Position numbers: made by a program
Part shown: positions 12,001-15,000 of the stretch, in pieces
Layout: each line of letters starts with the position of its first letter
Numbering within the stretch: the stretch's first letter is position 1
Source of the DNA: Escherichia coli
Lineage (GTDB): Bacteria > Pseudomonadota > Gammaproteobacteria > Enterobacterales > Enterobacteriaceae
Assembly: GCF_003334315.1 (NCBI RefSeq)
Contig: NZ_QOWR01000015.1
Strand: one strand, 5' to 3'
DNA: 64,000 bases

Positions 12001-15000
12001 TAAGTCGGTAGAAGAGATCTTCGCGGAATTTACCTTCGGCAATGAACTGGGCCAAATTCTGATTAGTTGCAGAAATGATGCGAATGTCGACTTGTATTGG
12101 GCTACTGGCACCAATCGGCAGAATTTCACGTGCCTCAATAGCGCGCAGTAATTTAGCCTGCAACATTAATGGCATATCACCTATTTCATCGAGAAACAGC
12201 GTGCCCGTATTCGCCGCCTGAATCAACCCTGTTTTACCGTTGGCAGAAGCGCCAGTAAATGCACCTTTAACATAACCGAACAGTTCGCTCTCCAGAAGCT
12301 GCTCCGGAATCGCGGCACAGTTGATAGCAATAAAGGGTTTATTCCGTCTTCCGCTCAACTTATGGATTGCACGGGCGACGACTTCTTTACCCGTGCCGCT
12401 TTCACCAACCACCATAACGCTGGATGGGCTGGGTGCAATACGGCTAATGAGTCGTTTTAATTGCCGCATAACACGGCACTCGCCAACCAATTGTTCAATA
12501 TGCGGTTCATCAGGTGCATTTGCTACAGAAAAACTGGTATGCGATTGGTGAAACGCCATTAAAAATAATTGTCGGCCCTGAATGTTATGCAATTGACCAA
12601 TGATTAATTCACTTTTATCGTCCCATGAAACAATATGCTGCATATGTCCATGGGTAAAATTACTCTCAAATGTTAATGGTCTGAAACGGATAGGTTTCCC
12701 AATAATATTATTTTGCACAACACCAAGTGTTTTTAAGGCAGTCTGATTAACAAACTGAACCCGATTTTCATCATCTACAACTAATACGCCCTGATCCATA
12801 TTATCGATCATGGTCGCAAATATTTTACTGATGTTATCTCCTGGCCCCTGATCCTCCAGAAGTTTCGAAACAAAAATGGTGGATATATGGCGAACATAAT
12901 CAGAAAATTCGCGTAAATTATCACTGATATGCTCTTGTTGCTCGTGGGTAACGGCAATCAAACTTATCACCCCAACACAACGATCCTGTAAAATGACAGG
13001 CGTACCCAGAAATGCTTTTTCGCGGCAATTTTCTTTACTATCGCAACCTTCGCAAAGGGGATCGAAGCGAGACTGTGTCACAACTTTTTCAGTTTTCGTT
13101 TCCAGGACGTGGCGGAGCAGGCGTGAGTTGCCGCTCAACTGGCGACCAAGAAACTTCCCATACGCGCCCGTTCCGGCAACGCGACACAAGTTTTCATCAA
13201 CGATCTCAACCTCAAGCTGCAAAACGCTGGCAAGCATTCTGGCAAAACGCTGAATTGTCGGTTGAATTTGCATCAATACTGACTGCGTAGTAGCAAGCTC
13301 CATAGCTTTACCTTCCAGACTTACTTAAAAGTCGATCATTGAAGACGTTGATGGTTCACAGATCATGATGATATTAACTCAGGCGAAATTGGCTTTGATA
13401 AAAACATAAGATTTTTATCATTTTCTAATGAAATTATGGAAGAGATATCACATTTCTATATCAATATGAGAATTACGGCGGTGAGTTTATCAAACTGAAG
13501 AGAGATAGCCTGCCCCTTTATCTTATTTCTGATACTTAGCAGCAAATAAATAACGCGATAAAAAAAGCCAAACGTTTTCGTATTTTACAAACAACCAGAA
13601 GCTGGCATCAATTTGTGATCAACCCCACACATTATCCGTCAAATTAGTCTTTTGCAGCCGCGCGGATAATTCTGGCACACTTATTGTTAGTCCCAGGTAT
13701 AGCTGTGAAAACACCAATCACTTTGGCAAGTCACAGTGAAATAAACCACTTTGCCTGTCATTCCACTACCGGGACTTTATGATGAAAACTGTTAATGAGC
13801 TGATTAAGGATATCAATTCGCTGACCTCTCACCTTCACGAGAAAGATTTTTTGTTAACGTGGGAACAGACGCCAGATGAACTGAAACAAGTACTGGACGT
13901 TGCCGCAGCATTAAAAGCACTGCGTGCTGAAAACATCTCAACCAAAGTCTTTAATAGTGGATTAGGTATTTCCGTATTCCGCGACAACTCCACCCGTACC
14001 CGCTTCTCTTATGCTTCCGCGCTTAACCTGCTCGGCCTTGCACAACAAGATCTCGACGAAGGCAAATCACAAATCGCTCACGGCGAAACCGTGCGTGAAA
14101 CCGCCAATATGATCTCCTTCTGCGCCGACGCTATTGGTATTCGCGACGATATGTATCTGGGCGCAGGCAACGCCTATATGCGTGAAGTTGGCGCTGCACT
14201 TGATGACGGTTACAAGCAGGGTGTACTGCCACAGCGTCCGGCTTTAGTGAACCTGCAATGCGATATTGACCACCCGACTCAGTCAATGGCTGACCTCGCG
14301 TGGTTACGTGAACACTTTGGTTCACTGGAAAACCTGAAAGGTAAAAAAATCGCCATGACCTGGGCCTACTCTCCAAGCTATGGCAAACCGCTCTCTGTAC
14401 CACAAGGCATCATCGGTCTGATGACTCGCTTCGGTATGGATGTCACCCTGGCCCATCCGGAAGGCTACGACCTGATCCCGGATGTGGTTGAAGTGGCGAA
14501 AAACAATGCTAAAGCCTCCGGTGGTAGCTTCCGTCAGGTCACCAGCATGGAAGAAGCCTTCAAAGACGCAGACATCGTTTATCCGAAGTCATGGGCACCT
14601 TACAAAGTGATGGAAGAGCGTACTGAATTGCTGCGTGCGAACGATCACGAAGGCTTAAAAGCACTGGAAAAACAGTGTCTGGCACAGAACGCGCAACACA
14701 AAGACTGGCATTGTACTGAAGAGATGATGGAACTGACCCGTGATGGCGAAGCCCTGTACATGCACTGCCTGCCAGCTGATATCAGCGGCGTATCCTGTAA
14801 AGAAGGTGAAGTGACTGAAGGCGTATTCGAAAAATACCGTATCGCTACCTACAAAGAAGCCAGCTGGAAGCCTTATATCATCGCCGCGATGATCCTGTCC
14901 CGTAAATACGCCAAACCAGGTGCACTGCTCGAGCAACTGCTGAAAGAAGCGCAAGAACGCGTGAAATAACCCCTCGGGCCGATCAGCTGGTCGGCCCTCT

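What the first reader, a model, noticed from the sequence alone, without database searches (positions are those of the whole stretch)
13673..13688. Near-consensus -24 element but degenerate -12 element upstream of ygeW
TGGCAC is a perfect -24 box, but the -12 position reads GT instead of GC. This is either a weak sigma-54 promoter for the ygeW-yqeA operon or a decayed one. Its position in the ygeV-ygeW divergent region makes it worth testing.
Basis: seen in the sequence. Interest (0 to 1): 0.3.

Follow-up and report, generated by a model that had tools for sequence, protein, structure and literature searches.

The report
Known sigma-54 promoter of ygeW
The motif is the real, already published binding site of the alternative sigma factor sigma-54 in front of the E. 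coli uric-acid-degradation gene ygeW; its unusual -12 base is conserved across genera, not a sign of decay.

Summary
Window 13673-13688 reads TGGCACACTTATTGTT, on the ygeW strand, in the 475-bp spacer between divergent ygeV and ygeW of E. coli.

It is not a chance match. A sigma-54 matrix built from 41 other ChIP-bound E. coli sites scores it 15.9 bits, the best hit in the 64 kb. About 0.001 such hits are expected in this spacer on this strand.

It is already known. Bonocora et al. 2015 list this 17-mer as in-vivo sigma-54 ChIP-seq site OS30, with low occupancy. Shimada et al. 2021 found RpoN holoenzyme binding in the same spacer in vitro. Later work cites a sigma-54 promoter for ygeWXY.

"Decayed" is rejected. 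The element lies 55-230 nt upstream of ygeW in 40 of 42 other proteobacterial loci and is invariant in divergent E. coli lineages. GT at -12 also occurs at the confirmed pspA and pspG promoters.

New but minor findings:
- The -12 base is T, A or G in 41 sequences, never the consensus C.
- A conserved TTATCA-N3-TGATAA palindrome lies about 234 bp upstream. Similar palindromes precede the xdhA, ygfK and ygfT sigma-54 sites, so it is a candidate YgeV enhancer.
- A conserved CRP-like site is centred at -77.5.

The start site and rpoN/ygeV dependence of ygeW remain untested.

The parts
13672..13688 (+). Sigma-54 -24/-12 promoter element CTGGCACACTTATTGTT. GG is at 13674-13675 and GT at 13686-13687.
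   Evidence: Sequence. Matrix score 15.9 bits, the best in the window. Chance expectation. Published ChIP-seq site OS30. Conserved in 40 of 42 orthologous loci. Invariant within E. coli.
13699..13699 (+). Predicted transcription start, 12 nt after the -12 base and 19 nt after the motif centre. This gives a 5' UTR of about 80 nt.
   Evidence: Inferred from sigma-54 promoter geometry. The same rule in Bonocora 2015 gives a distance of 80 to ygeW. No start-site data were found.
13614..13629 (.). CRP-like site TGTGATCAACCCCACA, centred at -77.5 from the predicted start.
   Evidence: One mismatch to TGTGA-N6-TCACA. It is the best CRP-like match at -77.5/-78.5 in 11 of 29 species, and a similar one lies at -67.5 in three more. 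It appears in the consensus. A native Crp site in this spacer and glucose repression are mentioned in PMC12507026.
13458..13472 (.). Conserved palindrome ATATCAATATGAGAA (family consensus TTATCA-N3-TGATAA). Candidate upstream activating sequence for YgeV, centred at -234.
   Evidence: Phylogenetic footprint over 29 species. The distance to the predicted start is 233-238 in 16 of 22 Enterobacterales, while the distance to the ygeV ATG ranges over 83-303. The same motif lies upstream of the xdhA, ygfK and ygfT sigma-54 sites. Binding by YgeV is inferred, not shown.
13487..13497 (.). Second conserved half-palindrome TTATCAAACTG (consensus TTATCAWWWTGG), 29 bp after the first.
13437..13452 (.). 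Conserved element TGGAAGAGATATCACA (orthologues read TGYAA-N6-TCACA). It looks like a CRP site and abuts the palindrome.
11525..13303 (-). ygeV, a sigma-54 enhancer-binding protein with PAS, AAA+ sigma-54 interaction domain (GAFTGA at residue 347) and a Fis-type helix-turn-helix. Presumed activator of this promoter.
   Evidence: Annotation. Pfam domains. GAFTGA motif. Divergent ygeV/ygeW arrangement in 32 of 43 sequences.
13779..14969 (+). ygeW, a carbamoyltransferase of the reductive uric-acid pathway and the first gene served by the promoter. RefSeq starts it at 13782.
   Evidence: Function from PMC12507026.
15027..19910 (+). Downstream co-oriented genes ygeX/dpaL, ygeY, hyuA and yqeA/arcC, separated by short gaps. 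They are probably co-transcribed at least in part.
   Evidence: Hairpins at 14976-14997, 17510-17529 and 20097-20122. These genes co-vary in the YgeV iModulon.

Best explanation
13672-13688 is the core promoter at which RNA polymerase carrying sigma-54 (RpoN) binds to transcribe ygeW, and probably ygeX-ygeY and onward. These genes belong to the anaerobic uric-acid degradation cluster.

The holoenzyme sits as a closed complex on GG(-24)/GT(-12). It should start at about 13699 only when remodelled by an AAA+ enhancer-binding protein. The most likely activator is YgeV, encoded divergently next door. YgeV would bind the conserved TTATCA-N3-TGATAA repeats about 205-240 bp upstream and reach the polymerase by DNA looping. 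The CRP-like site at -77.5 is the likely bending or co-activating element, and would link expression to glucose status.

What is shown, in the literature: sigma-54 binding in vivo and in vitro.
What is shown here: statistical significance, conservation of the motif, of its non-C -12 base, and of the upstream elements.
What is inferred: the start site, YgeV as activator, the palindromes as its binding sites, and the role of CRP.
For: Sigma-54 binding:
- The motif matches the sigma-54 matrix at 15.9 bits, the best hit in 64 kb, with 0.0009 expected in the spacer.
- Bonocora 2015 Table 1 lists CTGGCACACTTATTGTT as ChIP-seq site OS30, sense to ygeW, 80 nt from its start.
- The RpoN holoenzyme gSELEX peak in the ygeV/ygeW spacer has 53-55% intensity.

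Conservation:
- The motif is present 55-230 nt upstream of ygeW in 40 of 42 other proteobacterial loci. It is essentially the only such motif in those roughly 7-kb loci.
- GG and TTG are invariant or nearly invariant columns.
- The 17-mer is unchanged in E. coli lineages that carry SNPs in the flanks.
- GT at -12 also occurs at the confirmed promoters pspA and pspG.

Activator and enhancer:
- YgeV has the full enhancer-binding-protein architecture with GAFTGA, and is divergently linked to ygeW in 32 of 43 sequences.
- A footprinted block at 13437-13497 keeps a distance of 233-238 bp to the promoter in 16 of 22 Enterobacterales, while its distance to ygeV ranges over 83-303 bp.
- TATCA-N3-TGATA with up to 1 mismatch gives 6 hits in 64 kb against 1.6 expected. 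Four of them lie 119-213 bp upstream of the four sigma-54 sites of the cluster.

Expression:
- ygeWXY co-vary with xdhABC, ygfK, ssnA and ygfT in the 'YgeV' iModulon, and ygfT expression is reported to fall in a ygeV mutant.
- In Clostridiales the homologous genes form a sigma-54 regulon, DioR.

No alternative promoter:
- No credible sigma-70 promoter lies on the + strand of the spacer.
Against: - No start-site mapping and no rpoN- or ygeV-dependence data for ygeW itself were found in the papers searched. Bonocora et al. deliberately call their sites 'binding sites', not promoters.
- In-vivo occupancy is low, with a fold-above-threshold score of 3.
- The enhancer lies unusually far upstream (about -234), and no IHF consensus lies between it and the promoter.
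- The AT-rich palindromes resemble other AT-rich operators such as Fur-like boxes, and nobody has shown that YgeV binds them.
- The CRP-like site could instead serve the ygeV promoter.
- YgeV has also been described as an indole-responsive regulator of LEE genes, with no target sites defined.
Confidence: 0.82

Rival explanations
1. It is a sigma-54 binding site that no longer, or never, drives productive transcription: a decayed or 'parked polymerase' site. ygeW would be expressed some other way.
For: ChIP occupancy is low, with a fold-above-threshold score of 3. The -12 C is missing. Bonocora et al. note that many of their 135 sites may not be promoters.
Against: The element is conserved across Gamma- and Betaproteobacteria at a similar distance from ygeW. 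It is invariant in E. coli despite SNPs in the flanks. A linked enhancer-binding-protein gene and a phased upstream block are also conserved. Confirmed promoters share GT at -12.
Confidence: 0.07
2. ygeW is transcribed mainly from a CRP-dependent sigma-70 promoter in the spacer. The sigma-54 site would be secondary, or would act by competing for an overlapping promoter.
For: A CRP-like site lies at 13614-13629. Glucose repression and a 'native Crp-binding site' are mentioned in PMC12507026. A GATAAT hexamer lies at 13665-13670. A weak RpoE gSELEX peak is reported in the same spacer.
Against: The sigma-70 scan finds no -35/-10 pair on the + strand except one that overlaps the ATG. GATAAT has no usable -35 and is not conserved outside Escherichia and Citrobacter. 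A start 7 nt after GATAAT would put the CRP centre at about -55.5, which is not a canonical class I or class II position (inference from the sequence).
Confidence: 0.1
3. It is a chance resemblance to the sigma-54 consensus with no function.
For: Loose consensus matches occur at the chance rate in the window.
Against: Only 0.0009 hits of this score are expected in the spacer. Binding is published both in vivo and in vitro. The element is conserved across genera.
Confidence: 0.01

Closest known systems
E. coli pspA and pspG sigma-54 promoters (activator PspF)
   Same: Both have a strong -24 element (TGGCAC/TGGCAT) with TTGT rather than TTGC at -12. Both are bound by sigma-54 in vivo and flagged as experimentally confirmed in EcoCyc (Bonocora Table 1).
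   Different: They have a different activator and physiology (membrane stress). Their enhancers lie closer to the promoter and IHF assists at pspA (my own knowledge, not tested here). Their ChIP occupancy is higher, at 21 and 15 against 3.
xdhA, ygfK and ygfT sigma-54 sites of the same uricolytic cluster (window 7751-7767, 23488-23504, 38495-38511 minus strand)
   Same: They belong to the same gene cluster and the same 'YgeV' iModulon. All are ChIP-bound by sigma-54. Each has a TATCA-N3-TGATA-type palindrome 119-213 bp upstream.
   Different: Those three keep the canonical GC at -12. ygeW has the best -24 half and the highest matrix score but the lowest occupancy, tied with ygfT.
prpR / prpBCDE divergent locus (sigma-54 promoter, adjacent enhancer-binding-protein gene, CRP-dependent)
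   Same: A divergent activator gene and a sigma-54-dependent catabolic operon share one spacer that holds a CRP site. The prpB site is in Bonocora Table 1. CRP dependence of prp is my own knowledge.
   Different: CRP action at ygeW is only inferred from a conserved site at -77.5. The inducer and the enhancer sequence differ.
DioR sigma-54 regulon of Clostridiales (dpaL, ygeW-ygfK-ssnA-ygeY and others)
   Same: Homologous uricolytic genes are under a sigma-54 promoter and a dedicated enhancer-binding protein (PMC6615313).
   Different: It is in a different phylum and uses a different regulator family member. No sequence comparison of promoters or enhancers was made here.

Membership tests
Sigma-54 (RpoN)-dependent promoter | Bipartite -24/-12 element: GG and the -12 dinucleotide at canonical spacing, with an overall match to the profile of bound sites. 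| tested here: met
   TGGCAC-N5-TTG is present. The matrix built without this site scores it 15.9 bits, at the median of 41 bound sites and the top hit of the window.
Sigma-54 (RpoN)-dependent promoter | Consensus C at -12 (the GC dinucleotide). | tested here: not met
   T at 13687. This feature is not strictly defining. Ten of 135 ChIP-bound E. coli sites lack it, among them the confirmed pspA, pspG and hydN promoters.
Sigma-54 (RpoN)-dependent promoter | Occupied by sigma-54 holoenzyme. | not testable with these tools
   Literature only: ChIP-seq site OS30 with a fold-above-threshold score of 3, and an RpoN gSELEX peak of 53-55%.
Sigma-54 (RpoN)-dependent promoter | Correct orientation and a plausible distance to a downstream gene. 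| tested here: met
   The site is on the + strand and the predicted start at 13699 is 80 nt before the ygeW ATG. The distance is 55-230 nt in orthologues.
Sigma-54 (RpoN)-dependent promoter | A cognate enhancer-binding protein and an upstream enhancer. | tested here: inconclusive
   The adjacent ygeV has a sigma-54 activation domain with GAFTGA and an HTH_8 domain. A conserved, phased palindromic block lies at -205 to -260. Binding and activation have not been shown.
Sigma-54 (RpoN)-dependent promoter | An rpoN-dependent and activator-dependent transcript that starts about 12 nt after the -12 element. | not testable with these tools
   No start-site or mutant expression data for ygeW were found in the papers searched. 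The only evidence is co-expression in the iModulon.
Sigma-54 (RpoN)-dependent promoter | Evolutionary conservation, as expected of a functional promoter. | tested here: met
   Present in 40 of 42 orthologous proteobacterial loci. Invariant in divergent E. coli lineages.
CRP-dependent sigma-70 promoter (considered as a rival) | -35/-10 hexamers with a CRP site at -41.5 or -61.5. | tested here: not met
   No + strand sigma-70 candidate lies upstream of the ATG. GATAAT at 13665-13670 lacks a -35, would place CRP at about -55.5, and is not conserved.

The most novel reading that the evidence does not exclude
The ygeW promoter may represent a conserved subclass of sigma-54 promoters in which the consensus C at -12 is selectively excluded. 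The base is T in 22 sequences, A in 13 and G in 6, and never C, across Gamma- and Betaproteobacteria. The rest of the element stays near-perfect. Such a promoter would have a weakened -12 'fork-junction lock': lower closed-complex occupancy, or easier or leakier activation. It would be driven by a so far undescribed YgeV enhancer, TTATCA-N3-TGATAA, that is shared by all four sigma-54 promoters of the uricolytic cluster and held at a helically phased distance of about 234 bp, with CRP at -77.5 as the bending factor.
Probability: 0.3. Interest if true: 0.45.

Novelty: already known. Interest (0 to 1): 0.2.

Why it matters
The ygeW-ygeX-ygeY-hyuA-yqeA genes belong to the anaerobic uric-acid degradation pathway of gut bacteria, which is being engineered for gout therapy (PMC12507026). 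How the cluster is switched on is still poorly defined.

Confirming that this is a conserved, genuine sigma-54 promoter helps in two ways. It shows which elements must be kept or replaced when the cluster is re-engineered. It also gives concrete, testable cis-elements for the orphan regulator YgeV: a candidate enhancer and a CRP-like site.

For the genome scan, the result is mainly a calibration point. A 'degenerate' GT at -12 does not mean a dead sigma-54 promoter.

Tried and rejected
- **Sigma-70 scan of the spacer.** The only + strand candidate overlaps the ATG. GATAAT at 13665-13670 was rejected because it has no -35 and is not conserved.
- **IHF consensus between enhancer and promoter.** No match with up to 1 mismatch.
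- **Riboswitch or leader RNA in the 5' UTR.** No Rfam match at E up to 1. The fold is not better than shuffles, z = -0.7.
- **Second motif CTGGCATCAATTTGTGA at 13602-13618.** Its spacing is off by one, its matrix score is below 8, and it is not conserved, so I treat it as chance.
- **Helical phasing of the enhancer-promoter distance.** Suggestive only: P = 0.001 counting all lineages but 0.057 on unique distances.
- **Non-proteobacterial ygeW loci (L042-L081).** No TGGCAY-N5-TTG upstream of ygeW, so the promoter is not universal.
- **Papers not held.** Wang, Guo and Gralla 1999 on -12 nucleotides, and Iwadate and Kato 2019 on ygeV and uric acid. Their content is cited only through papers that quote them.
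- **Technical.** Loci from the search for related loci were not copied to the script machine. I passed their sequences through an alignment file instead.

Full report
**1. Observation**

Window 13673-13688 reads TGGCACACTTATTGTT on the + strand. That is TGGCAC, five bases, then TTGT, so GG and GT stand at the canonical -24/-12 spacing.

The site lies in the 475-bp spacer between ygeV (11525-13303, minus strand) and ygeW (13779-14969, plus strand) and points towards ygeW. The spacer is 100% identical to that of E. coli K-12 strains, and 5181 of 5426 complete E. coli genomes carry it.

A loose consensus search is uninformative: 45 hits with up to 2 mismatches against 42 expected. I therefore built a weight matrix from the 41 other intergenic, ChIP-bound sigma-54 sites of Bonocora et al. 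and left ygeW out.
- The 17-mer CTGGCACACTTATTGTT (13672-13688) scores 15.9 bits. This is the best hit in the 64 kb on either strand and sits at the median of the training sites.
- An exact score distribution gives 0.25 such hits expected per 64 kb, and 0.0009 on the + strand of the spacer.

**2. It is already in the literature**

- Bonocora et al. 2015 (PMC4591121), Table 1, list site OS30. The ChIP-seq peak centre is 3,004,190, the fold-above-threshold score is 3, the motif is CTGGCACACTTATTGTT on the + strand, the downstream gene is ygeW at a distance of 80, and the PSSM score is 9.8. The site carries no EcoCyc flag, so it was new in that paper.
- Their predicted start, 19 nt after the motif centre, corresponds to window 13699, which is 80 nt before the ATG at 13779.
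- Shimada et al. 2021 (PMC8743547) found an RpoN-holoenzyme gSELEX peak in the ygeV/ygeW spacer at 53-55% intensity.
- Lamoureux et al. 2023 (PMC10602906) state that sigma-54 promoters had been identified upstream of xdhABC and ygeWXY. They place these operons, with hyuA, ygfK, ssnA, ygfM, xdhD, ygfT and uacT, in a 'YgeV' iModulon. They also quote reduced ygfT expression in a ygeV mutant.
- In Clostridiales the homologous genes form a sigma-54 regulon, DioR.

**3. Is the GT a sign of decay? No**

*Precedent.* Of the 135 high-stringency sigma-54 sites in E. coli, 125 have C at -12 and 10 do not. The 10 include the experimentally confirmed pspA (TTGGCACGCAAATTGTA), pspG and hydN promoters.

*Conservation between species.* I fetched ygeW loci from one genome per species.
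- 40 of the 42 proteobacterial loci carry TGGCAY-N5-TTG on the ygeW strand, 55-230 nt upstream of ygeW. It is almost the only occurrence in each roughly 7-kb locus.
- The taxa span Citrobacter, Klebsiella, Edwardsiella, Hafnia, Morganella, Serratia, Erwinia, Aeromonas, Photobacterium, Endozoicomonas and betaproteobacterial metagenome-assembled genomes.
- In the 43-sequence alignment, G13675, C13676 and T13684 are invariant. T13673, G13674, A13677, T13682, T13685 and G13686 are at least 90% conserved.

*Conservation within E. coli.* Lineages whose spacer differs from K-12 (ST131, S3, AH19D088) carry SNPs on both sides of the 17-mer but none inside it.

*The -12 base itself.* It is T in 22 sequences (Enterobacterales), A in 13 (Aeromonas, some Serratia, Erwinia, Betaproteobacteria, one Photobacterium) and G in 6 (Photobacterium, Endozoicomonas). 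It is never C.
- The position drifts but avoids the consensus base. This suggests selection for a sub-optimal -12 rather than loss of function.
- The number of independent changes is small, about four or five, so this is suggestive and not proven.
- It fits the report, quoted in PMC4551910, that altering the sequence around the -12 GC raises activator-bypass transcription, and that a less conserved -12 C correlates with low-level bypass transcription.
- It also fits the low in-vivo occupancy (score 3, against 11 for xdhA and 26 for ygfK) despite the best matrix score.

**4. Surroundings and likely mechanism**

*The activator.* YgeV has a PAS domain, a sigma-54 interaction AAA+ domain (E = 2e-70) with an intact GAFTGA at residue 347, an AAA lid and a Fis-type HTH_8 domain. 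The divergent ygeV/ygeW arrangement, with a spacer of 300-610 bp, is kept in 32 of 43 sequences.

*Footprinted blocks.* A phylogenetic footprint of the spacer over 29 species shows only a few conserved blocks:
- the promoter itself;
- the ribosome-binding region;
- TTGATA at 13395-13400;
- a compound block at 13437-13497.

The compound block has three parts:
- a CRP-like TGGAA-N6-TCACA at 13437-13452;
- the palindrome ATATCAATATGAGAA at 13458-13472 (family consensus TTATCA-N3-TGATAA);
- a second TTATCA-N3-TG at 13487-13497.

*Coupling to the promoter.* The palindrome centre lies 233-238 bp from the predicted start in 16 of 22 Enterobacterales, and 195-196 bp in four Photobacterium loci. Its distance to the ygeV ATG ranges from 83 to 303 bp. 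The block is therefore tied to the sigma-54 promoter rather than to ygeV. The between-genus differences fall mostly in steps of about 10 bp. A phasing test gives P = 0.001 over all lineages but 0.057 on unique distances, which is suggestive only.

*A motif shared across the cluster.* TATCA-N3-TGATA with up to 1 mismatch occurs six times in the window, against 1.6 expected.
- Four copies lie 119-213 bp upstream of the four sigma-54 sites of the cluster: 7620 (xdhA), 13459 (ygeW), 23307 (ygfK) and 38677 (ygfT). The ygfT copy is identical to the ygeW copy.
- A fifth copy is in the same spacer at 13361, and a sixth lies inside ygeX.

I found no paper that reports a YgeV binding motif, so this is a candidate enhancer and nothing more.

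*Between enhancer and promoter.* There is no IHF consensus. There is a CRP-like site, TGTGATCAACCCCACA, at 13614-13629, centred at -77.5. It is the best CRP-like match at -77.5/-78.5 in 11 of 29 species and it appears in the 43-sequence consensus. PMC12507026 mentions a native Crp site in this spacer and glucose repression of urate degradation.

*Model.* Esigma54 binds GG/GT as a closed complex. YgeV bound at the palindromes loops over, with CRP as the probable bending or co-activating factor, and opens the promoter. Transcription starts near 13699 and reads ygeW, ygeX, ygeY and possibly hyuA-yqeA.

Hairpins follow ygeW (14976-14997), ygeY (17510-17529, with a T-run) and yqeA (20097-20122), so the extent of the operon remains open.

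**5. Rivals**

- A sigma-70 promoter for ygeW is not evident. The only + strand candidate overlaps the ATG. GATAAT at 13665-13670 lacks a -35 and is not conserved.
- A non-productive binding site is hard to reconcile with the conservation of the core element, its distance to ygeW, the linked activator gene and the phased upstream block.
- Chance is excluded.

**6. What remains open**

No start-site mapping and no rpoN or ygeV dependence of ygeW itself were found. The role of YgeV is complicated by its description as an indole-responsive regulator, IsrR. The enhancer, CRP and '-12 anything but C' ideas are inferences from sequence comparison.

**7. Verdict**

This is a genuine, conserved and already published sigma-54 promoter element. 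Interest as a finding is low. The modest new content is the cross-genus conservation of the non-C -12 base and the candidate shared YgeV enhancer.

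Noticed in passing
window 7620-7632, 13459-13471, 23307-23319, 38677-38689 (also 13361-13373 and 15303-15315): TATCA-N3-TGATA palindromes with up to 1 mismatch occur six times in 64 kb, against 1.6 expected. 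Four lie 119-213 bp upstream of the four sigma-54 binding sites of the uricolytic cluster (xdhA, ygeW, ygfK, ygfT). The ygeW and ygfT copies are identical. They are a candidate YgeV enhancer, and no published YgeV motif was found.
   Followed up: partly
window 13687 and the aligned base in L002-L041, L051, L075: The -12 base of the ygeW promoter is T in 22 sequences, A in 13 and G in 6, and never the consensus C. By contrast, 125 of 135 E. coli sigma-54 sites have C there.
   Followed up: partly
window 13437-13452: A second conserved CRP-like element, TGGAA-N6-TCACA (orthologues read TGYAA-N6-TCACA), lies directly next to the palindrome. It is about 141 bp upstream of the ygeV ATG and at -254.5 from the ygeW start. 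It could serve ygeV, ygeW or both.
   Followed up: partly
window 13458-13699 compared with orthologues: The distance from palindrome to promoter differs between genera mostly in steps of about 10 bp. This hints at helical phasing. The test gives P = 0.001 on all lineages and 0.057 on unique distances.
   Followed up: partly
window 14976-14997, 17510-17529, 20097-20122: GC-rich hairpins follow ygeW, ygeY (with a T-run) and yqeA. The ygeW-to-yqeA block may therefore be transcribed as nested units rather than as one simple operon.
   Followed up: no
window 13602-13618: CTGGCATCAATTTGTGA looks like a second -24/-12 element and resembles the hydN promoter, but its spacing is one base short. It overlaps the CRP-like site and is not conserved in other genera.
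   Followed up: yes
window 13396-13420: A perfect 9-bp inverted repeat, TGATAAAAA-N7-TTTTTATCA, lies about 100 bp upstream of the ygeV ATG. Only the TTGATA half is conserved beyond Escherichia and Citrobacter.
   Followed up: no
window 22157-22173 (minus strand), inside yqeC: TGAGCACGAACCTTGCA is the intragenic sigma-54 ChIP-seq site IS34 of Bonocora et al. It scores 9.4 bits in my matrix.
   Followed up: no
ygeV/ygeW spacer (literature coordinate 3,004,270, about window 13765): The RpoE gSELEX study (PMC5493296) also lists a weak peak, intensity 4.5, in this spacer and assigns it to ygeW.
   Followed up: no
L042-L081 (Bacteroidales, Riflebacteria, Verrucomicrobia and other ygeW loci): None has TGGCAY-N5-TTG upstream of ygeW. 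The sigma-54 promoter in this form is confined to the proteobacterial loci retrieved.
   Followed up: no
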